64,000 nt of DNA from an uncultured Lachnospiraceae bacterium (GCA_964490165.1 CAZBAR010000001.1:156213-220212); one strand, 5' to 3'. Numbered from the stretch's first letter, positions 20,798 to 64,000 are shown. Translations and numbers: made by a program. The notes: generated by a model not told the origin, from the letters alone.

Positions 20798-20820
20798 ATA
20801 CCATTAAATTTTAATATTTT

Positions 20821-20937
20821 ATATCTTTGGGGAATGGTGAAAATCCATACCGGCGGTTAAAGTCCGCGAGTCCTTTATGAGGATCGAACAGGTGAAATTC
20901 CTGCACCGACGGTTAAAGTCCGGATGAGAAAAGATAT
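20821..20937 (+). promoter_or_regulatory. FMN riboswitch (RFN element)
   Basis: The sequence ...CTTTGGGGAATGGTGAAAATCCATACCGGCGGTTAAAGTCCGCGAGTC...GATCGAACAGGTGAAATTCCTGCACCGACGGTTAAAGTCCGGATGAGAAAAGATAT matches the conserved RFN core. P1 pairs ATATCTT with AAGATAT. Confidence 0.85.
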
Positions 20938-20952
20938 GTCGCAGCTGTCGTT

Positions 20953-43238: not shown

Positions 43239-44402
43239 ATGAAAAAGTGTTTAGCTTTTCTTCTGTGCGCACTTATGGTAATTTGTGCGTCAGTTTCGGT
43301 GTTTGCAGCTAACGAAGCTGCTACAGTGACCTATACAGCTGATAAAGCTGAGGTTAAGCGTGGTGAAACAGTTACCGTGACTGTTTCTATCAGCGGATTT
43401 GATGTTGTACAGGCTGCAGGCCTCAACTTCAATGATTTCCTTGCTGAATACGGTGATACATTTGAAATAGCAAATGCTGATGATGTAAATGCCGTTGGTG
43501 TGTTGGCTACCGGTACCGGTAACTATAATCCTACCAAGCAGACTGTAAACTATGCGCTGAGATCTAATACCAGCCTTGAAGGCGCTATCTATACTGTTGT
43601 TCTTACTGCAAAAGCTGATGCAAAGCTTGATCAGATAAACATCCAGTTTGTATCTACAGTTAAGTACACTGATGAGAACAAGAAGACTCCCTCTATCGAG
43701 CATGCTGTTGTACCTGTAGCTGTAAAGGTTGTTTGCGCTGAGCACACACCCGGTGAGGCAGTTGTAACTGACGCTACTTGCACAGAAGCTGGTAGCAAGG
43801 TTGTTACCTGCGTAGATTGCGGCACAGTTATTGTTAATGAAGTTATTCCTGCAAAGGGTCACACTCCCGCTGCTGCTGAAGTAACTAAGGCTCCTACCTG
43901 CACTGAGACTGGTGTTTCTACTGTTAAGTGCTCAGTATGCGATGCAGTAGTCAGCACAGAGACTATTCCTGCTCTCGGCCACACTGTTGAAGAGTGGACT
44001 GTAGATGCTGAGCCTACCTGCACTGAGGAAGGTAGCAAGACCGGCGTATGCTCCGTTTGCGGCGCTGAGGTTGTTGAGGCTATCCCCGCTCTTGGTCATG
44101 ACTGGGTTGCAGGCGAGACTGTAGAGCCTACTGAGGATGCTGAAGGCTACACCGAGTACACCTGCTCTGTATGCGGCGAGACAAAGAAGGACGACATCGT
44201 TCCTGCTCTCGGTGCTGCTCAGACTCCTGCTGACTCCGATAAGCCCGCTGATTCCAATAAGCCTGCTGACTCCAGCAAGCCTGCTGATTCCAGCAAGCCT
44301 GCAATGGGCGATGATATGATCTTCGCAGTAGTTGTTCTTGCTGTTGTAGCTTGCGCTTCTGCTTCCGTTATCGTTATCAGACGTAGAAAGGCTAGCAAGT
44401 AA
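43239..44402 (+). CDS. Membrane-anchored surface protein: cohesin-like module, five Cys-containing repeats, a PADSxK linker and a C-terminal TM anchor
   Basis: A signal peptide and the module TVTYTADKAEVKRGETVTVTVSISGFDVVQAAGLNF. There are five repeats of roughly 37 aa with the pattern GHT-x8-10-(P/A)TCTE-x-G-x5-C-x2-C. These are followed by (PADSxK)x4 and the C-terminal MIFAVVVLAVVACASASVIVIRRRK. Confidence 0.6.
   Translation: MKKCLAFLLCALMVICASVSVFAANEAATVTYTADKAEVKRGETVTVTVSISGFDVVQAAGLNFNDFLAEYGDTFEIANADDVNAVGVLATGTGNYNPTKQTVNYALRSNTSLEGAIYTVVLTAKADAKLDQINIQFVSTVKYTDENKKTPSIEHAVVPVAVKVVCAEHTPGEAVVTDATCTEAGSKVVTCVDCGTVIVNEVIPAKGHTPAAAEVTKAPTCTETGVSTVKCSVCDAVVSTETIPALGHTVEEWTVDAEPTCTEEGSKTGVCSVCGAEVVEAIPALGHDWVAGETVEPTEDAEGYTEYTCSVCGETKKDDIVPALGAAQTPADSDKPADSNKPADSSKPADSSKPAMGDDMIFAVVVLAVVACASASVIVIRRRKASK
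44226..44297 (+). repeat. 18-bp in-frame tandem repeat x4 (PADS[D/N/S]K)
   Basis: CCTGCTGACTCCGATAAG / CCCGCTGATTCCAATAAG / CCTGCTGACTCCAGCAAG / CCTGCTGATTCCAGCAAG. Confidence 0.9.
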
Positions 44403-44427
44403 TTTTACTTGTAAAACTAATACTTAA

Positions 44428-44461
44428 AAGAAAGCGAGCCGCTTTGCGGCTCGCTTTCTTG
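44428..44461 (+). terminator. Rho-independent terminator
   Basis: AAGAAAGCGAGCCGC-ttt-GCGGCTCGCTTTCTT. Confidence 0.8.
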
Positions 44462-44518
44462 TTGATCTTTTGGAAGCTATATGCTATAATTCATAGTAGA
44501 ATTTTGGGAGGCGATAAT

Positions 44519-45319
44519 ATGATAATCGATTTTCACACACATGTATTTCCTGATAAGGTGGCTGAGCGTGCCGTATCTTCAATGGTTGCAAACGGTAATT
44601 TTACTCCTCACACCAACGGCACTGTATCAGGACTTCGCAGTTCAATGGCAGACGGTGGTGTAGATGCATCTGTTGTTCTCCCTGTTGTGACTAGTCCCAG
44701 ACAGTTTGACAGTGTAAATCGCTTTGCTGCCGAGATCAACGGAGTCGGGGGACTTTATTCTTTCGGCGGTATACACCCGGACAATGACAATATAGAGCAG
44801 CGCCTTGATTATATAAAGTCTCTCGGGCTTCGCGGAATTAAGATTCACCCTGATTTTCAGGATACATATATTGATGATGACCGCTATGTGAGGATTATTT
44901 CACACTGTGTTAAGATAGGCCTGTATGTATGTACTCATTCCGGATTTGACGGTTGCTATCTTAATAATGTTCATTGTACCCCCGACAGAATTCTTTCCCT
45001 GCTGTCAAAGCTTCCCGCGCACAGTGAACCCAGACTCATACTTGCTCATATAGGTGCTGTGGGAATGTTTGATGAGGTCGAGGAAAAGCTTGTGGGAACG
45101 AATGTGTATTTTGATACAGCTTATTGCCTTGATATGATAGACAGATCACAGCTTATGCGAATTATCGAAAACCACGGCAGTGACAGGATCCTGTTTGCTA
45201 CAGACTCTCCGTGGAAATCACAGAAAAGTTTCTTTGAAATATTCAATTCCCTTGAATTATCAGATTGTGATCGCGAAAAAATAGCGCATATAAACGCCGA
45301 AAAAATATTGGGCATTTGA
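44519..45319 (+). CDS. Amidohydrolase-family (TIM-barrel metal-dependent hydrolase) protein
   Basis: MIIDFHTHVFP... with later H/D metal ligands (...ILAHIG..., ...FATDSPW). ATG at 44519 follows GGGAGG. Confidence 0.75.
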   Translation: MIIDFHTHVFPDKVAERAVSSMVANGNFTPHTNGTVSGLRSSMADGGVDASVVLPVVTSPRQFDSVNRFAAEINGVGGLYSFGGIHPDNDNIEQRLDYIKSLGLRGIKIHPDFQDTYIDDDRYVRIISHCVKIGLYVCTHSGFDGCYLNNVHCTPDRILSLLSKLPAHSEPRLILAHIGAVGMFDEVEEKLVGTNVYFDTAYCLDMIDRSQLMRIIENHGSDRILFATDSPWKSQKSFFEIFNSLELSDCDREKIAHINAEKILGI

Positions 45320-54394: not shown

Positions 54395-55342
54395 ATGTCA
54401 CAGCAATTCAGAAGACAAATAGATGCAAGCCGTCCGCTTTTGGATTTTTCTCTTCCGTGTGATTACAGCACTATGGAAGAATTTATCGAAATAATGTCAG
54501 CAAGATATGATTTTATGTCAGTTACGAGTATCGGAGAGACAATTCTCGGACGGCGGATATATATGATCACACTGGGTGAGGGAAGCGCGGAAAAGGGCGC
54601 GCTGTACGTCGGCGCGCACCACGGTATGGAATGGATAACTACTCTTGTTCTGCTTAGATTTATAAACGAATATTGCGAGTATTATAAATCGGGAAAGCAG
54701 GTGTTCGGCATAAGTGTTCAAAGCCTGTTTGCAAAAAGGGAGATAAATATAATTCCAATGCTCAATGCCGACGGAGTAGATATGCAGATAAACGGCGTAG
54801 AAAAGGATAATCCTTTATATGAGCGGATAATGAAAATGAGCGGGGGAGATCTTTCGCATTGGCAGGCAAACGCAAGGGGAGTTGATCTGAACCATAACTA
54901 CGATGCGGGATTTTACGAGTATAAAAAGCTGGAGGCAGAGGCGGGAATCCTTCCGGGTGCTACAAGATATTCGGGAGAGTGCCCTGAGTCCGAGCCTGAA
55001 ACAGGAGCGCTGTGTAATTTTATACGGTTCAGTGATAAGGTCAATATGATACTTACGCTTCATTCTCAGGGGGAGGAAATATATTATACCTCAGGTGGCG
55101 CTGTGCCGAAGGGGGCAGGGCAGATCGCTGCAAGACTTGCGGATATGTCAGGCTATAAAGTCTCTGTTCCAGAGGGGCTGGCGTCATACGGTGGGCTTAC
55201 AGACTGGTTTATCAGAGAATTTGACAGACCGTCATTTACCGTGGAATGCGGCAAGGGCGAAAATCCTATCCGTGAAAATAAGTATTTTCCTATCTATGCG
55301 GCTATTCGCGAAATGCTGTTCTGCGCACCGCTTTTGATATAG
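54395..55342 (+). CDS. M14-family zinc carboxypeptidase / gamma-D-glutamyl-diamino-acid peptidase-like
   Basis: ...YVGAHHGMEWIT... (HxxE Zn ligands), ...GVDLNHNY... and ...LTLHSQGEEIYY.... Confidence 0.8.
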   Translation: MSQQFRRQIDASRPLLDFSLPCDYSTMEEFIEIMSARYDFMSVTSIGETILGRRIYMITLGEGSAEKGALYVGAHHGMEWITTLVLLRFINEYCEYYKSGKQVFGISVQSLFAKREINIIPMLNADGVDMQINGVEKDNPLYERIMKMSGGDLSHWQANARGVDLNHNYDAGFYEYKKLEAEAGILPGATRYSGECPESEPETGALCNFIRFSDKVNMILTLHSQGEEIYYTSGGAVPKGAGQIAARLADMSGYKVSVPEGLASYGGLTDWFIREFDRPSFTVECGKGENPIRENKYFPIYAAIREMLFCAPLLI

Positions 55343-55359
55343 AATCAGATATTTATTAT

Positions 55360-55646
55360 AGTCAGGACCTCCGGCTTAGCCGGAGATCCTGAGGTTGTCG
55401 AAAAAGTCCTCAGAAATAGCAAAATGCACAAAAGGGATTTCGCTCTCTGAGGAGAGCGACCAGAGGTTCCCTCTGGACTCCGGTGCGGCTTAGGCTTTTC
55501 GCCCTCTGCGGAGGGCGATTTAGGGCGTTGCCCTAAAAACCCACAAGCTTTTGAAAAAGCTTGACCAAAACTTTTAGTCATTTTGCTACAGACATTTAGT
55601 TTTTCGACAGTCTGAGGACCTCCGGCTAAGCTGGAGGTCCTGACTT
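55360..55646. repeat. MITE-like / REP-like structured element: roughly 46-bp terminal inverted repeats enclosing five consecutive short GC-rich hairpins
   Basis: The left end AGTCAGGACCTCCGGCTTAGCCGGAGATCCTGAGGTTGTCGAAAAA (55360-55405) is approximately the reverse complement of the right end TTTTTCGACAGTCTGAGGACCTCCGGCTAAGCTGGAGGTCCTGACT (55601-55646). Internal hairpins lie at 55441-58, 55460-76, 55499-518, 55521-35 and 55544-63. Confidence 0.6.
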
Positions 55647-55766
55647 TTATGTGTATATATGATACAATTTGGAGTGTGATGTTTTCAGTACCCGGATGGG
55701 GTAATTTTGTTCTATCGCTTCGTGTATAATAGATCCGAAAAAACGACAATCCGGAGAAATTATAAA

Positions 55767-56654
55767 ATGAACGAATCACTGAATGAAAAGGAATTATTTA
55801 CAAACATAAATGATGCCTTGATTCAAATATATGCAGATTTAGCCTATATTTATTGTAGTAATGAAGAAGCATCTGAAATCGGGACGGGATTTTCTGATCT
55901 TGACCGAATGATCGGAGGTATGAAGAAGTATGATCTTATCGTGATCGGAGGACGCCCCGGTATGGGAAAAACTGTATTCGCACTGAATATTGCATTATCT
56001 GCTGCAAAGAAATATAAAAAGAAAGTTTGTATATTCTCTTTGGAAATTGCTGCAAAACATATTGTTTCCCGTATGCTTACACGCGAGGCTATGGTTGACA
56101 GCTATTCGTTACGCAATGGTGATCTAAGAGACGACGACTGGGCGCGAATGGCATACGCGTCAGGCGAACTTGCAGACTGCGATATATTGATCGACGATAC
56201 CCCCAATATTTCCGTAAATGAAATGAGAACAAAGCTCAGAAAGATAAGAAATCCTGGACTTATAGTTATCGACTATTTACAGCTGATATCCGGTGGCGAA
56301 AAATTCAGAAAAAATAGAAATAAAGAGATCAGAGACATCGCTTACAGGCTCAAACTTCTGGCGCAAGAATTTCATGTACCCGTTATATGCTGCACACAGT
56401 TACCGCGAATAATAGAACACCGAGAGAATAATCGACCGAGGCTGTCGGATCTGCGCTTCATGGGAAACATAGACCGATATGCCGATACGGTCATGCTTCT
56501 ATACCGTGATAACTACTATCATTATGATTATGATAATGTGAAAGATACAGCAGAGATCATAGTAGCAAAAAACAGTCACGGAGATACCGGAACGGTTGAA
56601 ATTGGCTGGGACGGACAACATCTCAGATTTTATGACAAGATCGACACCGAATGA
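55767..56654 (+). CDS. DnaB-like helicase, C-terminal RecA-type domain only (295 aa)
   Basis: GTGFSDLDRMIGGMKKYDLIVIGGRPGMGKT (linker plus Walker A), LIVIDYLQLI (Walker B) and ...VPVICCTQLPR.... It lacks the roughly 150-aa N-terminal DnaB domain. It has its own TGTATAAT -10 and GGAG SD. Confidence 0.8.
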   Translation: MNESLNEKELFTNINDALIQIYADLAYIYCSNEEASEIGTGFSDLDRMIGGMKKYDLIVIGGRPGMGKTVFALNIALSAAKKYKKKVCIFSLEIAAKHIVSRMLTREAMVDSYSLRNGDLRDDDWARMAYASGELADCDILIDDTPNISVNEMRTKLRKIRNPGLIVIDYLQLISGGEKFRKNRNKEIRDIAYRLKLLAQEFHVPVICCTQLPRIIEHRENNRPRLSDLRFMGNIDRYADTVMLLYRDNYYHYDYDNVKDTAEIIVAKNSHGDTGTVEIGWDGQHLRFYDKIDTE

Positions 56655-56680
56655 GCCGTGGGACAAAAAAATCCCACGGC
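56655..56680 (+). terminator. Hairpin terminator after the dnaB-like gene
   Basis: GCCGTGGGA-caaaaaaa-TCCCACGGC. Confidence 0.55.
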
Positions 56681-56683
56681 GTA

Positions 56684-56712
56684 TTGTATTATATTAACAG
56701 ATATGATACAAT
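56684..56712 (+). promoter_or_regulatory. Sigma-A-type promoter for the WYL regulator gene
   Basis: TTGTAT, a 17-nt spacer, then TACAAT with an upstream TG. It is followed by an approximately 108-nt leader. Confidence 0.5.
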
Positions 56713-56820: not shown

Positions 56821-57879
56821 ATGAAGTACGCAAAGCAACCGAAAAAACTTCTTATCATAAACATTCTCGATATCCTGCGCAAGTACACGGACGAGGATCA
56901 CCGCCTCAGCCAAAAGGATATCGTTGATATTCTGGAAAAAGAATATAATATGTCAGCTGACAGAAAATCGGTGCGGCGCAATATCCTGAATCTGATCGAT
57001 TTTGGTTATGAGATAGAGTACAGCGAATCGAAGCGAATGATACCGGACGCAAAGACAGGCGAGCTGGAGGAGAGCTATATCCTTTCGGATTTCTACCTTG
57101 TGCGTGATTTTACGGATGGCGAGCTTCGCCTTCTTATTGACAGTATGCTTTTCTCGAAGCACATTCCGTACAGCCAGCGCAAGGAGCTTGTGGAAAAGCT
57201 GGAGGGGCTGTCAAATCAGTATTTCAGGGCAAGAGTAAAGCATATCAGCACTATGCCCGATAATGCGCCGCAAAACAAGCAGCTTTTTTATACGATCGAT
57301 GTCCTGGATGAAGCGATCAGCCATTCAAAGCAGGTTTCATTTACATACAATAGCTTCGGCATTGATAAAAAGCTGCATCCGAGACTTTCTTCAAGCGGAA
57401 AGCCGAGAGAATATATCGTAAATCCGTACCAGATCGCCGCAGCGAACGGTCGGTACTATCTTATATGCAACTATGATAAATACGACGATGTCGGTAACTA
57501 CCGCCTCGACCGCATAAGCGATATCAAGCTGCTTGACTCTCCCGCAAAGCCCATGAAAAAGGTTAAGGGACTTGAAAACGGCTTTGATCTGCCTCGCCAC
57601 ATGGCGGAGCACGTGTATATGTTTTCAGGCGAGAGCGGGACGGTCACATTCCGTATGAAAAAATATTTCATCAATGATGTAGTGGACTGGTTCGGCAAGG
57701 AAGTGGAGTTCTTTGACGAGTCGGAGGACGAGATCAGCGCAAGGGTGTATGTGAACCTTGCCGCTATGAGAAAATGGGCAATGCAATATGCAGTGCATAT
57801 GTGGGTGCTGTCGCCGCAGAGCCTTGCAGATGAGGTGAGAGCGGATATCAAAACGGCGATGGAGAATTACGAGCGATAA
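56821..57879 (+). CDS. WYL-domain transcriptional regulator (wHTH + WYL + C-terminal extension)
   Basis: N-terminus LLIINILDILRKYTDEDHRLSQKDIVDILEKEYNMSADRKSVRRNI. The WYL core is REYIVNPYQIAAANGRYYLICNYDKYDDVGNYRLDRISDIKLL. Confidence 0.85.
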   Translation: MKYAKQPKKLLIINILDILRKYTDEDHRLSQKDIVDILEKEYNMSADRKSVRRNILNLIDFGYEIEYSESKRMIPDAKTGELEESYILSDFYLVRDFTDGELRLLIDSMLFSKHIPYSQRKELVEKLEGLSNQYFRARVKHISTMPDNAPQNKQLFYTIDVLDEAISHSKQVSFTYNSFGIDKKLHPRLSSSGKPREYIVNPYQIAAANGRYYLICNYDKYDDVGNYRLDRISDIKLLDSPAKPMKKVKGLENGFDLPRHMAEHVYMFSGESGTVTFRMKKYFINDVVDWFGKEVEFFDESEDEISARVYVNLAAMRKWAMQYAVHMWVLSPQSLADEVRADIKTAMENYER

Positions 57880-57910
57880 AAAGTTTCAAAAAATTATAGG
57901 AGAGATTAAA

Positions 57911-59206
57911 ATGGACAACGAGAAAGATTTTGTGATCGAAAACGGCGTGTTGAAAAAATATAACGGTACCGACACCTCTGTTCAGATACCCGATGGAGTA
58001 ACAGAAATCGGGGAATGCGCATTTGGGGCATATAAAAATCTTACAAGCATTTACATTCCTGACAGCGTAATAGTAATTGGAGATGGCGCATTTGAGGGAT
58101 GTACCAAACTCACAGGCATCAATATTCCCGAAAGTGTTACGGAAATAGGCTGGTTCGCATTTGAGGGATGTACCGGTCTTACAAGTATCAATATTCCTGA
58201 CAGTGTAGCAGTAATCGAGGGTGGCACATTTGATGGTTGCACCGGTCTCACAAGCATCAATATACCTAATAACGTAACAGAAATCGGTAATTGCGCATTT
58301 TTAGCATGTGAAAATCTCACAAGCATCACCATCTCCGACAGTGTAACAGTAATCGGGTATAGAGCATTTTGGGGATGTAAAAGCTTAGCAGATACTAATG
58401 GTTTTGTAATCGTTCGTGATTGCCTATATCATTATGTCGGTAATTGCGAAACTGTAACGATTCCTGACAGTGTAACTAAAATCGGTAAAAAAGCATTTTG
58501 GAGATGTGAAAATCTCACAAGTATCAGCATCCCCGACAGTGTAACAGTAATCGAAGATGGCGCATTTAAGGAGTGTACAGGTTTAGCAGATACTCAGGGA
58601 TTTGTTATCGTTCGTGATTGCCTATATCATTATGCCGGCAATGACGAAACTGTAACGATTCTCGACAGCGTAACTAAAATCAGTGAAGACGCATTTAGGG
58701 AATGTAAAAATCTCACGAGCATCAATATTCCCGACAGTGTAACACTAATCGGCGATTACGCATTTTATCGATGTACAAGTCTCACAAACGTTAATATTCC
58801 CGACAGTGTAACAGCAATCGGGGAGTATGCATTTTTAGGATGTGAAAATCTCACAAGCATTACCATCCCCAGTAGTGTAACAGTAATCGAGGAAAGAGCA
58901 TTTGGGGAATGTGAAAATCTTATAACCGTCAATATACCCGATAGTGTAACCGAAATCGGCAGAGAAGCATTCATATTTTGTACCGCTCTCACAAACATCA
59001 ATATTCCTGATGGTGTAACTAAAATCGGGGATGATGCATTTTGTGATTGTACCAATCTCACAAGCATCAATATTCCCGACGGCGTTACGAAAATCGGCGA
59101 GCGCGCTTTTGAAGGATGTGAAAGTCTCACGATCCACGCGCCGTCCGGAAGCTATGCAGAACAGTACGCGAAGGAAAATGGTATCAGGTTTGAAGCGGCA
59201 GATTGA
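57911..59206 (+). CDS. BspA-type leucine-rich-repeat (LRR_5) protein with no signal peptide
   Basis: About 15 repeats of roughly 23 aa (IPDSVTxIGxxAFxxCxxLTSIx). The N-terminus MDNEKDFVIENGVLKKYNG has no hydrophobic leader. Confidence 0.85.
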   Translation: MDNEKDFVIENGVLKKYNGTDTSVQIPDGVTEIGECAFGAYKNLTSIYIPDSVIVIGDGAFEGCTKLTGINIPESVTEIGWFAFEGCTGLTSINIPDSVAVIEGGTFDGCTGLTSINIPNNVTEIGNCAFLACENLTSITISDSVTVIGYRAFWGCKSLADTNGFVIVRDCLYHYVGNCETVTIPDSVTKIGKKAFWRCENLTSISIPDSVTVIEDGAFKECTGLADTQGFVIVRDCLYHYAGNDETVTILDSVTKISEDAFRECKNLTSINIPDSVTLIGDYAFYRCTSLTNVNIPDSVTAIGEYAFLGCENLTSITIPSSVTVIEERAFGECENLITVNIPDSVTEIGREAFIFCTALTNINIPDGVTKIGDDAFCDCTNLTSINIPDGVTKIGERAFEGCESLTIHAPSGSYAEQYAKENGIRFEAAD

Positions 59207-59319
59207 TTTGCTGTAAGTGACTTCGAAATTGAGGACAATATCGCCACAAAAACTTGGCAATGAGCCCAAAACGAATTAGCACTAGTAAAAATTATTATTT
59301 ACTGAGAGGAGTATAACTA

Positions 59320-60417
59320 ATGAATGATGTAAACAGTATAAAAAAACTTTTAGAGAAAATTACCGACGTTCACATAAATGATATCAGCGAAAGAAAAAAC
59401 GAATACAATATATTTCATGTTTTGGGAATTGAGCATAGAGAAGTTTTGATTTGCCGATTTCTCGGTAATCTGCTTGATCCTAAAGGTTCTCACGGCATGG
59501 GAATTATTCCGTTAAAAGCTTTTATCGGTGGTGTCATAGGTGAAGAAGTTGCGGATAAGGAGTTGTCCAATGCTGTAATACTGCTCGAAGAGCATATAGA
59601 CGATGACCGGAGAGTAGACATTGTAATACATTTAAGTAATAAAATTTACCCGATCGAAGTCAAAATATGGGCAGGCGATCAAGAGTGCCAGTTACAAGAT
59701 TATTACAAATATTTTTTCGGTAATGACGAGAATCACAAGATATATTATCTTACGCCGTTCGGCAGTTTCACGTCTGAAAAAAGCAGAGGCAAGCTAAAAA
59801 AAGATGAACAAATTGTTTGCTTGTCTTTTAAAGAAAACATTCATGACTGGTTAAATGAGATAAATAAGATAAATAATGAAGCCGGCAGCAGCGAAGTTAA
59901 GTTTGTTATTAAAAACTTTATGGAGGTAATCGAAAATATGTGTGCAAGTAATAAGGAAGAAAACGATATTTTGAGAGCATTATCACTGGATAACGAATAC
60001 CAAGAATCCGATTTGATAAAAAGCGCTATCATTTTGATGAAGCACAGTGATAATATCTGGGCTGTAATCAGAAAGAAGTATCTCTTGTCAAAACTCGATT
60101 GCTGGGGTGATAAGTATGACTGGAAAGAATGTGATGATAATGATAAAAAAATAGATAAGCATGCATTATTCAGAATCATAGAAAAATCGGATGAAAAAAA
60201 GACTCCGATTGCATGGATTTGTGTTGATACAAATTTGTATATAACCGCAGCCGGAAAAGCATCGGATTGGAGTGATTATCCAGGCGGAAATTATAGATGG
60301 AAATACATAATACCTAAGGGATATAAAGGAAATAAATTTGCGTTAAACAAGCCAACTACCTTGCCTGAAAATAAAATATGTATTAAAGATATCTTAGACG
60401 AAATATCAAATGCATAA
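59320..60417 (+). CDS. PD-(D/E)XK nuclease-family protein (PDDEXK_4-like) with an uncharacterised C-terminal half
   Basis: YNIFHVLGIEHREVLICRFLGNLLDPKGSHG..., then RRVDIVIHL...YPIEVKIWA (D...E-x-K). The gene is markedly AT-rich compared with its neighbours. Confidence 0.7.
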   Translation: MNDVNSIKKLLEKITDVHINDISERKNEYNIFHVLGIEHREVLICRFLGNLLDPKGSHGMGIIPLKAFIGGVIGEEVADKELSNAVILLEEHIDDDRRVDIVIHLSNKIYPIEVKIWAGDQECQLQDYYKYFFGNDENHKIYYLTPFGSFTSEKSRGKLKKDEQIVCLSFKENIHDWLNEINKINNEAGSSEVKFVIKNFMEVIENMCASNKEENDILRALSLDNEYQESDLIKSAIILMKHSDNIWAVIRKKYLLSKLDCWGDKYDWKECDDNDKKIDKHALFRIIEKSDEKKTPIAWICVDTNLYITAAGKASDWSDYPGGNYRWKYIIPKGYKGNKFALNKPTTLPENKICIKDILDEISNA

Positions 60418-60475
60418 TTTTGATATCCACCGTTTGACCTCACAAATAAGCCACCATGGAAAAACTATATAATGC

Positions 60476-60709
60476 TTGAAAGAATATGATAAACCGCTGA
60501 TTATAACAATAAAAACAATACAAGGTTTTTCAAAAGAGTTAACAGACTTTCTGCATCGGTATACCGTTCTTCCGTTGCACTCAAACGAATGCAGTATTCT
60601 TTCTTATTTAGAAAAAATGATGAAAAAATATTTACCCGATATCGCCGCAGAGCCTTGCAGATGAGGTGAGAGCGGATATAGAAACGGCGATGGCGAATTA
60701 CGAGCAATG
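60476..60709 (+). pseudogene. Remnant 3' end of a second WYL-regulator gene (frameshifted)
   Basis: Positions 60642-60709 are near-identical to 57811-57879 and encode SPQSLADEVRADIETAMANYEQ* (the intact gene reads ...SPQSLADEVRADIKTAMENYER*). That frame is closed by a TGA at 60621. The adjacent ORF 60476-60664, in another frame (...SILSYLEKMMKKY), weakly parallels ...SARVYVNLAAMRKW of the intact gene. Confidence 0.6.
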
Positions 60710-60719
60710 AAGCAGATCT

Positions 60720-60860
60720 TAAAAATAAGAGGAGCGATTAAAATATAAGCAATGGAGTAAATTTGTAATCGAAAACGTCGTTTTGAAAGAATACCATCTT
60801 TCAGAACTCCAAATTCCGGAAGGAGTAACAAAAATCAGTCGGGGCGCATTTATGGGAAGT
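60720..60860 (+). pseudogene. Remnant 5' end of a second LRR gene
   Basis: This segment aligns by eye with 57890-58030 (RBS region, ...GTAATCGAAAACG.CG.TTTGAAA..., ...GGAGTAACA.AAATC.G.GGG..GCATTT.GGG). The ATG is lost and a stop follows (ATG GAG TAA). Confidence 0.6.
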
Positions 60861-61073
60861 ACCAAACATAACGGGACCGCTCCGGTTACCTGAATTACGG
60901 GTGGCCGGAGCTGCTTTTTTGTTGGCGCCGATTCTTTTTTTGATGTACCAAAAATGTCCCTTGACGGGTGGTATTATATTACCGTAAAGTATTATAAATA
61001 TCGGCATGGATGTGGCAAAAACGGGACACGGACTTTCGTATAATTATGCCGAGGACAGACGGAGGTTTTGAAA

Positions 61074-64000
61074 ATGAAAAATCAGGAGAAAAAGGAACTG
61101 AACGGACAACTTTCACTGGATGAGCTGTTTGAGCGCGTAGGGAACAATTTAGAAAAAATGCCCTCAACCGATATTTCTGCTATAATAAAGCGTTTGCAAG
61201 AGCTGGAGCTGAATGCAAAGAAAGCAGAGAGAGAAGAGCGACTTCGTAAAGAACGTGAGGAGAAGGAGCGGGCGGAGCAGGAAGAAAAGGAGCGCAAAGA
61301 GGCTCATATCCGCGAGGTCACATCTATGGATCTGCCCATGGACTGGAGCAACGTTTTTGATACGTCAGACATCACCCGCGGTGTTCATACAGACAGCATT
61401 TCAGATGCACTTGTCCTTTGTCTGTCAGATCTCGGTCGGGTCGACATTGAATATATTTCCGCAGTTACTGGCGAGAGCTGTAAAAATGTTATCTGCGCCT
61501 TAAAGGGCGCAATATATCAAAATCCTGAAACATGGAACGAATGCTTTTACAAAGGCTGGGAGTCAGCAGAGGAATATCTCTCCGGAAATCTTATACGCAA
61601 ATTTAAGGCAGCCAAGGCGGCAGATGAAAAGTACAGGGGCTATTTTGCCGATAATATTTCTGCAATAGAAAAAGTGCTGCCGAAGTCTGCTGCGGCAGGG
61701 GATATATATATTACCATAGGATCGCCGTGGGTGCCTGCCGATATAATAGATGATTTTATTTTTGATTTGTTCGGAGATCCCCTTGAAGGCTACAGATATC
61801 CCGACGTTACGAGAATCGCTATAATGAACAACTTCAAAACGAAGCACGACGAGCTTACGGGAACGTGGGAGATACCTGAAAAAACAAGATACCGCAGAAC
61901 CAACGTAAAGATCAACCGTACATACGGAACTGAAAAAATGGGAGCGCTGTATATACTTGAAAAAACGCTTAATATGAAAACGGTTTCCGTGACGGAAGAA
62001 GTAAACAGTCCTACGAATGCGTCGGGCGTAAAGCGCGTGATAAATAAGGAGGAAACTTTAGCTGTTCTTGAAAAACAGAAAAAGCTTATAAATAAATTTG
62101 AAAAGTGGGTATGGAGCGACGACAGCCGAAAAGAGCGTCTGGAAGCGATATTTGAAGAAAACTTCGGCTGTGTTCGCCGCAGGATATTTGACGGCTCTTT
62201 TCTGAAATTTCCTACAATGTCTCCCGATGTAAGTCTTTATCCTTATCAGAAGGACGCTGTGGCGAGAATGATCTTTTCACCCAATACGCTTTTGGCGCAT
62301 GATGTAGGCTCAGGCAAGACCTATGCTATGATAGCGGCAGGTCAGGAGCTTCGGCGTATGGGACTGTCGAAAAAGAATATGTACGTTGTGCCCAATAATA
62401 TTGTAGGGCAGTGGAAAAGCATTTTTTATACAATGTACCCCGAAGCAGATATTATATGTGTTGAGCCCCGAAGCTTTACGCCTGCAAAACGGGAATCTGT
62501 GCTTGAAAAAATACGGGACAGCGATTTTGACGCCGTTATTATCGCATACAGCTGCTTTGAGCAGATACCGCTGTCAAAGGCGTATTACAGAAAAGAGCTG
62601 GAAGATAAAAAAAGCCGTGTGGAAGAGCTGCTGGCGCAAAAAAGCAAGGCAACGTCAAGGCTGAAAAAGAAGCAGGAGTCTCTCGCCAAAGCGCTGTCAG
62701 AGCTTGCGGCTGCAATTGACGATATGTATAACGGTGTATATTTTGACGAGCTGGGAATAACCAGACTGTTTGTTGACGAGGCGCACAACTTCAAAAATGT
62801 TCCTATCGAGACAAAGGTAGGCACGGTGTCCGGTATAAGCAGCGGCGGTTCAAAAAAGTGCCGTGATATGATGGACAAGGTTCATATGGTGCAGTCTCAG
62901 AACAGTGGAGGCGGAGTAGTTTTTGCAACAGGCACGCCTATTACAAACTCGGTAACGGATGCATATATAATGCAAAAGTATCTGCAAAGCGGAGAGCTTG
63001 CCATGCTTGATCTTGAAAGCTTTGACAGCTGGATAGGAATGTTTGCCGAAAAGGTGGAGAATTTTGAGATAGATGTTGATACAAGCAACTACAGACTGGT
63101 AACCAGATTTTCAAAGTTTCACAACTTGCCTGAGCTTACCTCGCTTTTATCCTCTATTGCGGATTTTCACCGTGTTGACACCTCCGCAGGAGTTCCAGAT
63201 ACTGACGGATATATTGACTCGCTTATTTCAAAGACCGTCGATTTTGCACGTTATCTCAGTGATATATCGCAAAGAGCCGACGCTGTAAGAAACGGGCAGA
63301 TCAGCCGTACTGACGACAATATGCTTAAAATAACGACCGACGGCAGAAAAGCGGCGCTGGATATGCGGCTTGTAGACCCCGGTGCAGCGTTTACATATCA
63401 GTCAAAGGCGGCAAGATGTGCTGAAAATGTTGCTGATATATATTTCAAAACAATGCAGGACAGAAGCACGCAGCTTATTTTTTGCGATACCTCTACACCC
63501 AAGTCGGGCTTTAATATGTATGACGAGCTGAAAACAAGGCTTGTAGCTGCCGGTGTAGCGGGGGATCAGATCGAATTTATACATGATGCCGGCACTGTGG
63601 CAAAGCGTGAGGCGCTTTTTTCAAGGGTGCGCCGTGGAGAGACCCGTATTCTGATCGGCTCTACCTTTAAGCTGGGCATCGGCGTCAACATACAGAATAA
63701 ATTAACAGCACTGCATCACCTTGACGTGCCGTGGAGGCCTGCCGATATGACCCAAAGGGAGGGGCGCATACTCCGTCAGGGAAATGAAAACTCAAAGGTA
63801 TTTATTTACAGGTATATTACAGAGGGCAGCTTTGACGCATATTCATGGCAGCTTCTGGAGACAAAGCAGCGGTTTATAAGCGAATTGCTGTCAGGCTCGC
63901 TGTCCCGCCGCAGCAGCGAGGATATTGAAAGCACTGTTCTGGATTACGCTGAGGTAAAGGCGCTTGCCGTAGGCAATCCGCTCATAAAGGAGAGGGTAGA
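61074..64000 (+). CDS. Large SNF2/DEAD-like superfamily-2 helicase (N-terminal 975 codons; continues beyond the window)
   Basis: I translated this frame by hand and it is open from the ATG at 61074 (GGAGG SD) to the window end. It is absent from the ORF track because it has no stop. Motifs: I HDVGSGKT, II VDEAHNFKN, III ATGTPITNS, VI QREGRILRQG. A K/E-rich coiled coil lies near the N-terminus. It resembles the helicase part of the giant methylase/helicase proteins of Firmicute ICEs and phages. Confidence 0.85.
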   Translation, partial: MKNQEKKELNGQLSLDELFERVGNNLEKMPSTDISAIIKRLQELELNAKKAEREERLRKEREEKERAEQEEKERKEAHIREVTSMDLPMDWSNVFDTSDITRGVHTDSISDALVLCLSDLGRVDIEYISAVTGESCKNVICALKGAIYQNPETWNECFYKGWESAEEYLSGNLIRKFKAAKAADEKYRGYFADNISAIEKVLPKSAAAGDIYITIGSPWVPADIIDDFIFDLFGDPLEGYRYPDVTRIAIMNNFKTKHDELTGTWEIPEKTRYRRTNVKINRTYGTEKMGALYILEKTLNMKTVSVTEEVNSPTNASGVKRVINKEETLAVLEKQKKLINKFEKWVWSDDSRKERLEAIFEENFGCVRRRIFDGSFLKFPTMSPDVSLYPYQKDAVARMIFSPNTLLAHDVGSGKTYAMIAAGQELRRMGLSKKNMYVVPNNIVGQWKSIFYTMYPEADIICVEPRSFTPAKRESVLEKIRDSDFDAVIIAYSCFEQIPLSKAYYRKELEDKKSRVEELLAQKSKATSRLKKKQESLAKALSELAAAIDDMYNGVYFDELGITRLFVDEAHNFKNVPIETKVGTVSGISSGGSKKCRDMMDKVHMVQSQNSGGGVVFATGTPITNSVTDAYIMQKYLQSGELAMLDLESFDSWIGMFAEKVENFEIDVDTSNYRLVTRFSKFHNLPELTSLLSSIADFHRVDTSAGVPDTDGYIDSLISKTVDFARYLSDISQRADAVRNGQISRTDDNMLKITTDGRKAALDMRLVDPGAAFTYQSKAARCAENVADIYFKTMQDRSTQLIFCDTSTPKSGFNMYDELKTRLVAAGVAGDQIEFIHDAGTVAKREALFSRVRRGETRILIGSTFKLGIGVNIQNKLTALHHLDVPWRPADMTQREGRILRQGNENSKVFIYRYITEGSFDAYSWQLLETKQRFISELLSGSLSRRSSEDIESTVLDYAEVKALAVGNPLIKERV

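What the first reader, a model, noticed from the sequence alone, without database searches (positions are those of the whole stretch)
56821..60417. WYL regulator + cytoplasmic LRR protein + PD-(D/E)XK nuclease: candidate regulator/sensor/effector (defence-like) module
Three co-oriented genes sit inside an accessory or mobile region. The first is a wHTH-WYL regulator. WYL regulators such as BrxR and CapW are established as switches placed upstream of BREX and CBASS defence operons. The second is a BspA-type LRR protein with no signal peptide or anchor, so it is probably intracellular, which is unusual because these repeats are normally annotated as surface proteins. The third is a PD-(D/E)XK nuclease-fold protein with an unknown roughly 200-aa C-terminal half. 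A repeat-based binding scaffold next to a nuclease and under a WYL switch looks like a sensor/effector architecture. I do not recognise this combination as a named defence system. The unit appears to have existed in two copies here (see the repeat finding), which suggests WYL-LRR is a conserved pair.
Basis: partly seen in the sequence, partly recalled or inferred. Interest (0 to 1): 0.75.

Follow-up and report, generated by a model that had tools for sequence, protein, structure and literature searches.

The report
WYL-switched swappable nuclease cassette
A DNA-damage-type (WYL) gene switch sits in front of a slot that holds different cargo genes in related gut bacteria; here it holds an intracellular leucine-rich-repeat protein and a candidate anti-phage nuclease, so this is a regulated defence-island cassette and not a proven new three-part immune system.

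Summary
The three co-oriented genes exist as described. They are a WYL regulator (56821-57879), a signal-less LRR_5 protein (57911-59206) and a PD-(D/E)XK nuclease (59320-60417). The nuclease has an intact D100/E113/K115 motif and a conserved C-terminal domain with no PDB fold match.

The nuclease is not uncatalogued: it matches PADLOC's single-gene "phage defence candidate" PDC-S26 (E 1.5e-46).

Comparative data change the picture.
- In 19 nuclease-centred genome loci, a ~70%-identical WYL gene lies within one gene of the nuclease in 10.
- In 72 WYL-centred metagenome loci, the gene just downstream (same strand in 66) belongs to 31 different families. PD-(D/E)XK nucleases fill 19 slots and LRR_5 fills 1.
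- WYL genes 95% identical carry nucleases only 40% identical.
- A palindrome (GCCGTGGGAC-A7-TCCCACGGC, 56655-56680) abuts a good promoter. It recurs at a fixed distance from the promoter's -35 element in at least 26 loci.
- In the window, LRR plus nuclease form a 2.8 kb low-GC segment. A 70-nt direct repeat brackets it, and the second copy is followed by a decayed older LRR gene start.

Verdict: this is a WYL-gated, recombinationally swappable cargo slot in a defence-island or mobile context. The WYL-nuclease link is supported. An obligate LRR-nuclease sensor/effector pair is not. Cytoplasmic LRR_5 genes do recur nearby, unexplained.

The parts
55758..56654 (+). DnaB_C-only helicase gene. It is a neighbour and part of the recurrent backbone, not of the cassette. 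The ORF also opens at a TTG at 55707.
   Evidence: Pfam DnaB_C E 2.6e-85; it lacks the DnaB N-terminal domain. DnaB_C genes recur in 16 related loci.
56655..56680 (.). Putative WYL operator. A 26-bp palindrome, GCCGTGGGAC-AAAAAAA-TCCCACGGC, with GC-rich half-sites and an A/T centre. It starts right after the DnaB_C stop codon and ends 3 nt before the -35 element.
   Evidence: It is the only TGGGA-N6-10-YCCCA site in the 64 kb window. The same box sits at a fixed distance from the -35 in at least 26 of 73 WYL loci (17 distinct sequences) that have different upstream genes. The consensus scan also flags it as terminator-like, so it could have a dual role.
56684..56712 (+). Promoter-like site for the WYL operon: -35 TTGTAT (56684-56689), 17-nt spacer, extended -10 TG-n-TACAAT (56704-56712). 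A 108-nt leader runs to the WYL ATG.
   Evidence: Read from the sequence. The TTGTA-17-TAnAAT pattern is conserved in related loci.
56821..57879 (+). WYL-family transcription factor (N-terminal presumed wHTH, then WYL and WCX domains).
   Evidence: Pfam WYL 2e-13 and WCX 22.6 bits. PADLOC WYL 3e-29. The profile hits DriD entries 7u02/7tzv/8tp8 at E ~1e-5 and PafC at 1e-4. Y213 and R228 align with DriD Tyr192 and Arg207 (PMC10853764). There were 371 relatives in metagenomes, and the best 80 are 60-74% identical.
57811..57880 (+). Direct repeat copy 1: the 3' end of the WYL gene and the left recombination joint of the incoming segment.
   Evidence: 93% identical to 60642-60711. Similarity starts abruptly at TCGCCGCAG.
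57911..59206 (+). Cytoplasmic BspA-type LRR_5 protein (431 aa). It has three modules, each opened by an 'F-V-I-x-x-G-x-L-x-x-Y' cap, and an internal 198-nt duplication.
   Evidence: LRR_5 7e-111. Internal repeats D1 and D2. No signal peptide by hydropathy. PDB relatives are BspA-like LRR proteins 4fs7 and 4gt6. No PADLOC hit.
59320..60417 (+). PD-(D/E)XK nuclease of family PDDEXK_4, matching PADLOC PDC-S26. It has an N-terminal nuclease domain, a helical linker and a family-specific C-terminal beta-rich domain.
   Evidence: PDDEXK_4 1e-25. PDC-S26 1.5e-46. E41, E90, R97, R98, D100, E113, K115, D120 and Q124 are invariant in both the 25- and 86-sequence alignments; H58 is invariant in the 25 and nearly so (>=90%) in the 86. 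AF2 pLDDT 91. Foldseek to a phage PD-(D/E)XK protein at E 7.5e-10 and weakly to Can2, AF1548 and Cdn1. GC 0.34 against 0.45 for the window.
60418..60641 (.). AT-rich tail of the incoming segment (GC 0.32), with no convincing gene.
60642..60890 (+). Remnant of an older WYL-LRR junction. It comprises direct repeat copy 2 (60642-60711, the WYL 3' end), the same ribosome-binding spacer, and about 45 decayed codons of a different LRR allele (start codon lost, in-frame stops).
60879..60911 (+). First terminator-like hairpin downstream of the three genes.
   Evidence: 14-bp stem followed by a T-run.
61074..64000 (+). SNF2-family helicase gene that runs off the window. It is a recurrent backbone neighbour and marks the right edge of the cargo slot.
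   Evidence: Pfam SNF2-rel_dom, ResIII and Helicase_C. Homologues lie next to WYL or the nuclease in L004, L007, L020, L088, L113 and L114. It gives only generic helicase hits in PADLOC.

Best explanation
The locus is a WYL-gated cargo slot inside a defence-island-like or mobile accessory region of an Oscillospiraceae-type genome.

Proposed mechanism:
1. A homodimeric WYL transcription factor of the DriD/PafBC/CapW/BrxR kind binds the 26-bp palindrome that abuts its own promoter (inferred).
2. It controls one transcript covering itself and whatever lies downstream, as far as the hairpin at 60879-60911 (inferred).
3. By analogy with characterised WYL regulators, it changes state when its WYL domain binds single-stranded DNA produced by DNA damage or invading-DNA replication, and so raises expression of the cargo (inferred).
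4. The cargo position is exchanged by recombination that uses the conserved WYL gene as one homology arm (shown by comparison).
5. In this genome a 2.8 kb lower-GC segment carrying an LRR_5 gene and a PDC-S26 nuclease gene replaced most of an older LRR cargo (shown from the sequence).
6. The nuclease, with an intact PD-(D/E)XK site, is the likely effector and cuts nucleic acid when induced. Its function as anti-phage or anti-plasmid defence is inferred from family membership and neighbourhood, not shown.
7. The LRR_5 protein is a second, separable cargo of unknown role and not an obligatory partner.
For: Operon layout:
- Gaps between the genes are 31 and 113 nt, with no terminator before 60879.

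Operator and promoter:
- The palindrome is unique in the window.
- It is positionally conserved next to TTGTA-17-TAnAAT in at least 26 of 73 loci with unrelated upstream genes.
- Its architecture (GC half-sites, A/T-rich centre) matches what is described for DriD sites (PMC10853764).

WYL ligand residues:
- Y213 and R228 are at least 90% conserved.
- They align with DriD Tyr192 and Arg207, which contact ssDNA (PMC10853764).
- CapW, DriD and PafBC all sense ssDNA (PMC11662680, PMC9186387, PMC11804915).

WYL-nuclease linkage:
- WYL lies within one gene of the nuclease in 10 of 19 GTDB loci, usually 4-65 nt upstream.

Swappable slot:
- 31 families occupy the position behind WYL in 72 loci, and 66 are co-oriented.
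- 19 of these are PD-(D/E)XK nucleases of four families.
- L022 and L025 have WYL 95% identical but nucleases 40% identical.

Recombination scar and composition:
-.

Defence and mobile context in recurrent neighbours:
- GmrSD, type I R-M, retron-type RT, PD-Lambda-1, SoFic, PDC-S02/S04, Mrr, integrases, resolvases and TnpV.
- McrBC lies beside a plasmid-borne homologue.

Nuclease competence:
-.
Against: - There are no expression or phenotype data.
- PDC-S26 is only a computational candidate, and I found no experimental paper on it.
- Whether the WYL protein activates or represses cannot be told from the operator position.
- The palindrome could also, or instead, terminate the upstream helicase gene.
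- The N-terminal wHTH was not detected by sequence.
- BrxR and CapW structures were not hit at E<=0.01.
- The conserved neighbours are replication/repair-type genes (DnaB_C, PHP/DnaE-like, primase, SNF2). The switch may therefore primarily serve an element's replication or a damage response.
- Signal-less LRR_5 genes recur near these genes more often than a pure passenger model predicts. Three share the window protein's N-terminal cap (L034, L105/L106, L110).
Confidence: 0.55

Rival explanations
1. One reading: a dedicated three-component system. The cytoplasmic LRR_5 protein would be the sensor that recognises an invader molecule and activates or targets the PDDEXK_4 nuclease, with WYL as the transcriptional switch.
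For: - The three genes are probably co-transcribed.
- LRR_5 genes lie within three genes of the four nearest nuclease clades examined: P0019 (L002/L102), P0003 (L105/L106), P0006 (L110) and P0017 (L111).
- LRR_5 is otherwise rare in these neighbourhoods: 1 of 80 WYL loci.
- The same N-terminal cap motif occurs in the window, L034, L105, L110 and L007.
- L007 holds all three families within 9 kb.
- LRR_5 arrays are found fused to TIR, kinase and BRCT domains, so they are used inside cells.
Against: - No other locus has the WYL-LRR-nuclease order.
- Gene order and distance between LRR and nuclease vary: downstream, two genes upstream, or on the opposite strand.
- The L002 LRR is a lipoprotein with a signal peptide.
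- 20 of about 26 distinct nuclease loci lack any LRR.
- PADLOC models the nuclease as a single-gene candidate, and the LRR has no PADLOC hit.
- The LRR also follows WYL without a nuclease (L034 and the remnant in the window).
- The LRR and nuclease differ in GC (0.42 against 0.34).
- The LRR may track the PHP/DnaE-like gene and not the nuclease (L110, L111).
Confidence: 0.13
2. The WYL protein is chiefly the damage-responsive master switch of a mobile element or repair island. It would control the DnaB_C, PHP/DnaE-like, primase and SNF2-MoxR-VWA genes. The LRR and nuclease genes would then be passengers ('morons') or DNA-processing accessories and not immunity genes.
For: - The recurrent backbone consists of replication/repair-type genes around WYL.
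- Integrases, resolvases and TnpV lie nearby.
- By sequence the nearest solved relatives are the DNA-damage activators DriD and PafC.
- In E. eligens a homologue follows an HTH-ImmA/IrrE pair.
- WYL is much more conserved (~70% identity) than its cargo (~40%).
Against: - The operator-promoter directly drives WYL and the variable gene, not the backbone genes. The backbone genes change position and strand between loci.
- No second operator copy exists elsewhere in the window.
- No relatives were found in IMG/VR viral contigs.
- Many slot occupants and neighbours are defence-type.
Confidence: 0.2
3. The adjacency carries no functional meaning. Three unrelated accessory genes would have been juxtaposed by recombination in a plastic region, with the nuclease or LRR possibly inactive.
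For: - The segment is a recent mosaic with a recombination scar and mixed GC.
- The exact nuclease and LRR sequences were retrieved only on two short Logan contigs (nuclease plus LRR on L001, the WYL gene on L101); the 227-kb NCBI contig on record, presumably the source, was not returned.
Against: - WYL-nuclease adjacency recurs in many species-level genomes, with tight spacing and shared orientation.
- All three ORFs are intact and the catalytic residues are conserved.
- A conserved operator-promoter precedes the set.
Confidence: 0.08

Closest known systems
BrxR / CapW family (wHTH-WYL-WCX regulators beside BREX, CBASS and other defence systems; PMC9122601, PMC11662680)
   Same: - A WYL-domain regulator sits immediately upstream of, and co-oriented with, defence-type genes.
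- A palindromic site lies in its own promoter region.
- It associates with many different downstream systems.
- The expected trigger is ssDNA.
   Different: - Sequence searches did not retrieve BrxR or CapW structures at E<=0.01; DriD and PafC were the hits.
- The WCX score is just under the Pfam cut-off.
- The cargo here is typically one small gene and not a multi-gene system.
- Repressor behaviour is not shown.
DriD / PafBC (WYL activators of SOS-independent DNA-damage responses; PMC9186387, PMC10853764, PMC11804915)
   Same: - They are the closest solved relatives by sequence.
- The Tyr of the WYL motif and the Arg of the YRLDR strand are conserved.
- The operator has GC-rich half-sites around an A/T-rich centre, placed at the -35 region.
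   Different: - Similarity is only about E 1e-5 and covers the WYL-WCX part.
- The promoter here has a recognisable -35, whereas DriD promoters lack one (PMC13004042).
- The host phylum differs.
- The controlled genes are variable accessory genes, not a fixed damage regulon.
PADLOC phage defence candidate PDC-S26 (single-gene PDDEXK_4 protein)
   Same: - The nuclease matches 12 PDC-S26 models, the best at E 1.5e-46 over residues 8-274.
- It has the same length class and the same PD-(D/E)XK core.
   Different: - PDC-S26 is defined without a regulator or partner.
- The best model does not cover the last ~90 residues.
- The candidate has no published validation that I could find.
Repeat-sensor immune proteins of bacteria (STAND/Avs and bacterial NLR-like proteins with TPR or LRR sensor arrays)
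   Same: The idea of a cytoplasmic repeat scaffold acting next to a nuclease effector.
   Different: - There is no NTPase (STAND/NACHT) module.
- Sensor and effector are separate genes.
- The LRR is the BspA/LRR_5 type.
- Linkage to the nuclease is loose.
- Nothing was tested functionally.
Defence-island hotspots and cassette platforms (for example variable cargo between conserved core genes of mobile elements; pipolins, PMC11551731)
   Same: - A conserved anchor gene is followed by highly variable cargo that includes defence genes.
- Exchange between near-identical anchors is evident.
   Different: - The anchor is itself the regulator, and the cargo shares its promoter.
- No dedicated integrase or attachment site for the slot was found.
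- Exchange appears to use homology within the WYL gene.

Membership tests
wHTH-WYL-WCX transcription factors (BrxR/CapW/DriD/PafBC class) | WYL (Sm-like) domain present | tested here: met
   Pfam PF13280, E 2e-13, residues 159-236. PADLOC WYL, E 3e-29.
wHTH-WYL-WCX transcription factors (BrxR/CapW/DriD/PafBC class) | C-terminal WCX domain | tested here: inconclusive
   PF25583 scores 22.6 bits against a 23.9 cut-off. The DriD alignment and the PADLOC model both run through residues ~275-346.
wHTH-WYL-WCX transcription factors (BrxR/CapW/DriD/PafBC class) | [quoted passage not shown] | tested here: inconclusive
   No significant Pfam or PDB sequence hit for residues 1-160. The region is conserved in homologues.
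wHTH-WYL-WCX transcription factors (BrxR/CapW/DriD/PafBC class) | ssDNA-contacting residues of the WYL pocket conserved | tested here: met
   Y213 and R228 (at least 90% conserved) align with DriD Tyr192 and Arg207. DriD Arg204 is not matched (PMC10853764). Met in part.
wHTH-WYL-WCX transcription factors (BrxR/CapW/DriD/PafBC class) | Palindromic operator in or next to its own promoter | tested here: met
   The 26-bp palindrome at 56655-56680 abuts the -35. It is conserved in position in at least 26 of 73 loci. Binding itself was not tested.
wHTH-WYL-WCX transcription factors (BrxR/CapW/DriD/PafBC class) | Ligand-dependent change in DNA binding or transcription | not testable with these tools
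   Needs EMSA or a reporter assay with and without ssDNA.
PD-(D/E)XK nuclease superfamily, family PDDEXK_4 (PF14281) | Profile match above the curated threshold | tested here: met
   91.3 bits against a 22.3 cut-off, residues 29-201.
PD-(D/E)XK nuclease superfamily, family PDDEXK_4 (PF14281) | Catalytic D...(D/E)xK residues present and conserved in homologues | tested here: met
   D100, E113 and K115, plus E90 and Q124, are invariant in 25 and in 86 sequences.
PD-(D/E)XK nuclease superfamily, family PDDEXK_4 (PF14281) | Restriction-endonuclease-like fold | tested here: met
   The AF2 model has pLDDT 91. Foldseek gives E 7.5e-10 and TM 0.73 (normalised by target length) to a phage PD-(D/E)XK protein. 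Only weak PDB hits to Can2, AF1548 and Cdn1.
PADLOC PDC-S26 (single-gene phage defence candidate) | Match to the PDC-S26 HMMs | tested here: met
   12 models hit. The best is PDLC04983 at E 1.5e-46, model positions 11-286 of 413.
PADLOC PDC-S26 (single-gene phage defence candidate) | Protection against phage | not testable with these tools
   No experimental report was found. Needs a challenge assay.
BspA-type LRR (LRR_5) proteins | LRR_5 repeats | tested here: met
   E 6.8e-111 with five stretches. Closest PDB relatives are 4fs7 and 4gt6.
BspA-type LRR (LRR_5) surface proteins | Signal peptide, lipobox or cell-wall anchor | tested here: not met
   No hydrophobic N-terminal or TM-like segment by hydropathy. 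The control lipoprotein L002 is clearly positive. No dedicated predictor such as SignalP was available.
   The contiguous trio occurs only in the window (and in fragments of the same sequence, L001/L101). L007 has the three families spread over 9 kb.

The most novel reading that the evidence does not exclude
Signal-less BspA-type LRR_5 proteins with the 'F-[VI]-I-E-N-G-V-L-K-x-Y' cap could be intracellular ligand sensors of a new class of bacterial conflict system. They would work in trans with PDC-S26/PDDEXK_4 nucleases (and perhaps with the neighbouring PHP/DnaE-like and metallophosphatase genes) under a ssDNA-responsive WYL switch. That would be an LRR-based innate-immunity module lacking any STAND NTPase.
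Probability: 0.12. Interest if true: 0.85.

Novelty: new member of a known kind. Interest (0 to 1): 0.4.

Why it matters
If the main reading holds, the locus adds a Firmicute (gut Oscillospiraceae) example to the emerging rule that WYL regulators keep toxic defence effectors silent until single-stranded DNA signals trouble.

It also shows a compact design. One conserved regulator with its operator serves as both the promoter and the homology arm for a cargo position that has been refilled with at least 31 gene families.

That makes this WYL clade a practical handle for finding new effector genes. Many slot occupants have no Pfam or PADLOC match.

It also gives PDC-S26, so far only a computational candidate, a testable regulatory context.

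The recurrent cytoplasmic LRR_5 genes are a loose end that could be more interesting than the operon itself.

Tried and rejected
1. Recovering the source contig beyond the window end. Exact-sequence look-ups of the nuclease and WYL proteins returned only 2-3 kb Logan contigs, and cluster look-up gave no names.
2. A phage origin. Pattern and tblastn scans of IMG/VR with the WYL and nuclease profiles found nothing. GenBank phage records hold only relatives below 30% identity.
3. Function of the nuclease C-terminal domain. There is no Pfam hit and no sequence hit in PDB. A separate AF2 model (pLDDT 90) gave no Foldseek PDB match better than E 0.5.
4. A reciprocal LRR-centred context analysis. The LRR_5 superfamily is too large and repeat-driven: 7682 proteins at E<=1e-30 among the 8000 candidates scored, with none above about 56% local identity. 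Orthologues could not be defined.
5. Detecting the wHTH by sequence.
6. Assigning the SNF2-MoxR-DUF2201 neighbours to a named defence system. Only generic helicase or AAA matches were found.
7. A fixed-spacing palindrome search missed the site because I set the spacer one base too long. The gapped pattern found it.
8. My first greedy ORF picking replaced WYL with an antisense shadow ORF in 10 loci ('c7'). This was corrected with tblastn coordinates.
9. I considered and rejected the idea that the 315-aa helicase is the chromosomal replicative DnaB. It lacks the N-terminal domain, and similar DnaB_C-only genes travel with the WYL neighbourhood.

Full report
**1. Observation.**
The window carries three co-oriented ORFs at exactly the stated coordinates.
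- The first (56821-57879, 352 aa) has a Pfam WYL domain (E 2e-13). Its WCX match falls 1.3 bits under threshold. It matches PADLOC's WYL model over residues 157-346 (E 3e-29).
- The second (57911-59206, 431 aa) is an LRR_5/BspA-type repeat protein (E 7e-111). It has no hydrophobic N-terminus, no membrane-like segment and no anchor. An LRR lipoprotein from locus L002 scored clearly positive in the same hydropathy test.
- The third (59320-60417, 365 aa) has a PDDEXK_4 domain over residues 29-201 (E 1e-25).

**2. The nuclease.**
- It is a full-length member of a family about 350-380 aa long. There were 314 homologues at E<=1e-5, the nearest only about 47-50% identical.
- E41, E90, R97, R98, D100, E113, K115, D120 and Q124 are invariant in both the 25- and 86-sequence alignments, and H58 is invariant in the 25 and nearly so in the 86. 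The PD-(D/E)XK site is therefore intact.
- An AlphaFold2 model is confident (pLDDT 91).
- Its N-terminal half matches a phage PD-(D/E)XK protein (Foldseek E 7.5e-10). It matches the nuclease domains of Can2, AF1548, Cdn1 and Bax1 only weakly.
- The C-terminal ~180 residues are conserved and confidently folded (pLDDT 90). They have no Pfam match, no PDB sequence match and no PDB fold match.
- The protein hits 12 PADLOC PDC-S26 models (best E 1.5e-46). It therefore already belongs to a catalogued single-gene 'phage defence candidate'.
- The only paper in the library that mentions PDC-S26 lists it among defence systems frequent in pipolins. I found no experimental test.

**3. Nuclease-centred neighbourhoods.**
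A scan of one genome per GTDB species found 19 loci, all in Oscillospiraceae, Ruminococcus or Acutalibacteraceae-type MAGs.
- A homologue of the window's WYL gene lies within one gene of the nuclease in 10 loci.
  - Directly upstream: L004, L006, L008, L010, L018.
  - One gene between: L020.
  - Directly downstream: L005, L007, L013.
  - Divergent: L003.
  - It lies 3 kb away in L015.
- Where WYL is upstream, the gap is typically 4-65 nt.
- The WYL proteins are about 70% identical to the window's. The adjacent nucleases are about 40% identical.

**4. WYL-centred neighbourhoods.**
A metagenome scan found 371 relatives, and the best 80 (60-74% identity) were retrieved. After correcting an ORF-picking artefact, 72 loci had an evaluable downstream gene.
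- That gene is on the same strand in 66 loci.
- It belongs to 31 different families.
- The commonest are:
  - an unknown 265-297 aa family (9 loci);
  - a DUF2779/Cas4-like nuclease (9);
  - PDDEXK_4/PDC-S26 (7);
  - a WG-repeat protein (5);
  - another unknown family (5);
  - smaller groups that include a divergent PDC-S26, a third PDDEXK_4, a macro-domain protein and, once (L034), a 639-aa cytoplasmic LRR_5 protein.
- PD-(D/E)XK-type nucleases together fill 19 of the 72 slots.
- L022 and L025 have WYL proteins 95% identical but nucleases only 40% identical. So cargo is exchanged behind an almost unchanged regulator.
- Other genes can sit between WYL and the nuclease: a GNAT acetyltransferase in L113 and an unknown gene in L020.

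**5. Regulatory DNA.**
- Immediately after the upstream helicase stop codon lies a 26-bp palindrome, GCCGTGGGAC-AAAAAAA-TCCCACGGC (56655-56680).
- Three bases later comes TTGTAT, then a 17-nt spacer, then TG-n-TACAAT.
- The palindrome core occurs nowhere else in the 64 kb window.
- When related loci are aligned on their -35 hexamers, the same box appears at the same distance in at least 26 of 73 loci. The box reads cc-ATG[G/T]nC, then 5-7 A/T, then TCCCAt-gg. It is present as 17 distinct sequences, regardless of what gene lies upstream.
- GC-rich half-sites around an A/T-rich centre at the -35 region is the architecture reported for DriD sites (PMC10853764, PMC13004042).
- The consensus scan also scores the window copy as terminator-like, so a dual role cannot be excluded.
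- No terminator-like hairpin lies between the three genes. The LRR-nuclease spacer has an RBS and no stable structure (z = -1.1). The first hairpin with a T-run is at 60879-60911.
- A single WYL-LRR-nuclease transcript is therefore likely, but it is inferred.

**6. Kind of WYL protein.**
- A profile of the clade retrieves the DriD structures 7u02, 7tzv and 8tp8 (E ~1e-5) and PafC (1e-4). It does not retrieve BrxR or CapW at E<=0.01.
- In the DriD alignment, Y213 of the window's 'YYL' motif matches DriD Tyr192. Y227-R228 of 'YRLDR' match DriD Trp206-Arg207.
- Tyr192 and Arg207 contact ssDNA and are needed for activation (PMC10853764).
- Y213 and R228 are at least 90% conserved in the clade.
- DriD, PafBC and CapW have each been shown to sense ssDNA (PMC9186387, PMC11804915, PMC11662680).
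- The N-terminal DNA-binding domain could not be recognised by sequence.

**7. History of the window's cassette.**
- The last 70 nt of the WYL gene (57811-57880) are repeated at 60642-60711 (93%).
- Similarity begins abruptly. It continues through the stop codon, the same AGGAG...ATTAAAAT spacer and about 45 codons of an LRR gene start. That start is only about 70-75% identical to the intact one and has lost its start codon.
- The 2.8 kb between the repeat copies has GC 0.37: LRR 0.42, nuclease 0.34, tail 0.32. WYL is 0.47 and the SNF2 gene 0.46.
- The simplest reading is that a related element's WYL(3')-LRR-nuclease segment recombined in, with one crossover inside the conserved WYL gene, and displaced an older WYL-LRR' arrangement.
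Only the junction is duplicated, but it shows two different LRR alleles directly behind WYL in this lineage, and L034 is a third case.

**8. The LRR question.**
Against an obligatory LRR-nuclease pair:
- The trio is unique to the window.
- Most nuclease loci have no LRR.
- The order and distance of the LRR vary.
- The LRR has no PADLOC hit.
- The LRR beside nuclease P0019 is a lipoprotein.

In favour of some link:
- Signal-less LRR_5 genes lie directly downstream of nuclease P0003 (L105/L106, frameshifted), two genes upstream of P0006 (L110), three genes from P0017 (L111), directly behind WYL (L034), and 6 kb from a nuclease-WYL pair (L007). All except the L111 gene, which has a different N-terminal domain, share the window protein's N-terminal cap.
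- LRR_5 appears in only 1 of 80 WYL-centred loci.
- These loci also share a PHP/DnaE-like gene, so common descent of the neighbourhood, or linkage to that gene, is an alternative.
- The LRR_5 superfamily is huge, and orthologues cannot be defined.
- The same search shows LRR_5 arrays fused to kinase, BRCT and TIR domains. Intracellular use of this repeat is therefore not exceptional.

**9. Wider context.**
- Recurrent backbone genes around WYL are:
  - DnaB_C-only helicases;
  - PHP/DnaE-like polymerases;
  - a DnaG-like primase;
  - an SNF2 helicase followed by MoxR AAA and DUF2201/VWA genes;
  - metallophosphatases;
  - RtcB;
  - FtsH-like AAA proteases.
- Families recurring in at least two loci also include type I R-M subunits, GmrSD, Mrr, a retron-type reverse transcriptase, PD-Lambda-1, SoFic/Fic, PDC-S02/S04, integrases, resolvases and TnpV.
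- A plasmid homologue of WYL in Butyrivibrio sits beside McrBC. One on an E. eligens plasmid follows an HTH-ImmA/IrrE pair.
- This is the signature of a defence-island-like, mobile accessory region. It also leaves open that the switch serves the element's own replication or a damage response.

**10. Verdict.**
- The best-supported model (confidence about 0.55) is a ssDNA-responsive WYL regulator. Its own promoter and operator drive a recombinationally swappable cargo position.
- Here the cargo is a cytoplasmic LRR_5 protein plus a PDC-S26 PD-(D/E)XK nuclease, with the nuclease as the probable effector.
- Shown: gene content, motif conservation, recurrent WYL-nuclease adjacency, slot variability, the conserved operator-promoter, and the recombination scar.
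- Inferred: co-transcription, the ssDNA trigger, the direction of regulation, nuclease activity, and a defence role.
- Relative to known systems, this is a new member of the known kind 'WYL-regulated defence genes'. Two leads are worth following: the slot as a source of unknown effector families, and the recurrent cytoplasmic LRR_5 genes.

Noticed in passing
window 55355-55405 and 55600-55650: A 51-nt inverted repeat (86% complementary) with 194 nt between the arms. Each arm is itself a GC-rich hairpin. It lies between the last housekeeping-type gene (M14 peptidase, 54395-55342) and the DnaB_C helicase. It may mark the left edge of the accessory region or be a small repeat element.
   Followed up: no
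window 55758-56654: A DnaB_C-only helicase (no N-terminal domain, GC 0.40). Similar truncated helicases travel with the WYL neighbourhood in 16 related loci.
   Followed up: partly
L007 1802-7864; L113 1-3928; L114 1-5801; window 61074-64000: A recurring triad of SNF2 helicase (WH_1-DUF8437-SNF2-Helicase_dom), MoxR-type AAA_3 ATPase and DUF2201 (metallopeptidase-VWA) lies next to WYL or the nuclease. PADLOC gives only generic helicase hits. It may be an uncharacterised conflict or replication module.
   Followed up: partly
L046 9028-9825; L088 9031-9930; L030 2876-3625; L078 9053-9907: Four recurrent families occupy the slot directly behind WYL (9, 5, 4 and 3 loci). None has a Pfam or PADLOC match. 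They are candidates for unknown WYL-controlled effectors.
   Followed up: partly
P0212 and other proteins listed: LRR_5 arrays occur fused to TIR (PF01582/PF13676), protein kinase (PF00069) and BRCT (PF00533) domains in metagenome proteins. This suggests that BspA-type repeats are used as intracellular modules, possibly in immune-like proteins.
   Followed up: no
L054 11667-12320 and 6 other loci (L037, L046-L048, L052, L056): A small (about 185-217 aa) LRR_4-type protein recurs two to four genes from WYL in a sub-clade of loci. In that sub-clade the slot holds the unknown 265-297 aa family.
   Followed up: no
window 20819-20939 (+): FMN riboswitch, 109.7 bits, upstream of a + strand ORF. This is an ordinary feature.
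   Followed up: no
window 44373-44558 (-): Rfam STnc540 hit at 39.7 bits against a gathering score of 38. This is an enterobacterial sRNA family in a Clostridia-like sequence and is probably a chance match.
   Followed up: no
window 58262-58657: A tandem 198-nt duplication (81% identity) inside the LRR gene. It duplicates a 'cap + LRR' module, which indicates recent repeat expansion of the LRR protein.
   Followed up: no
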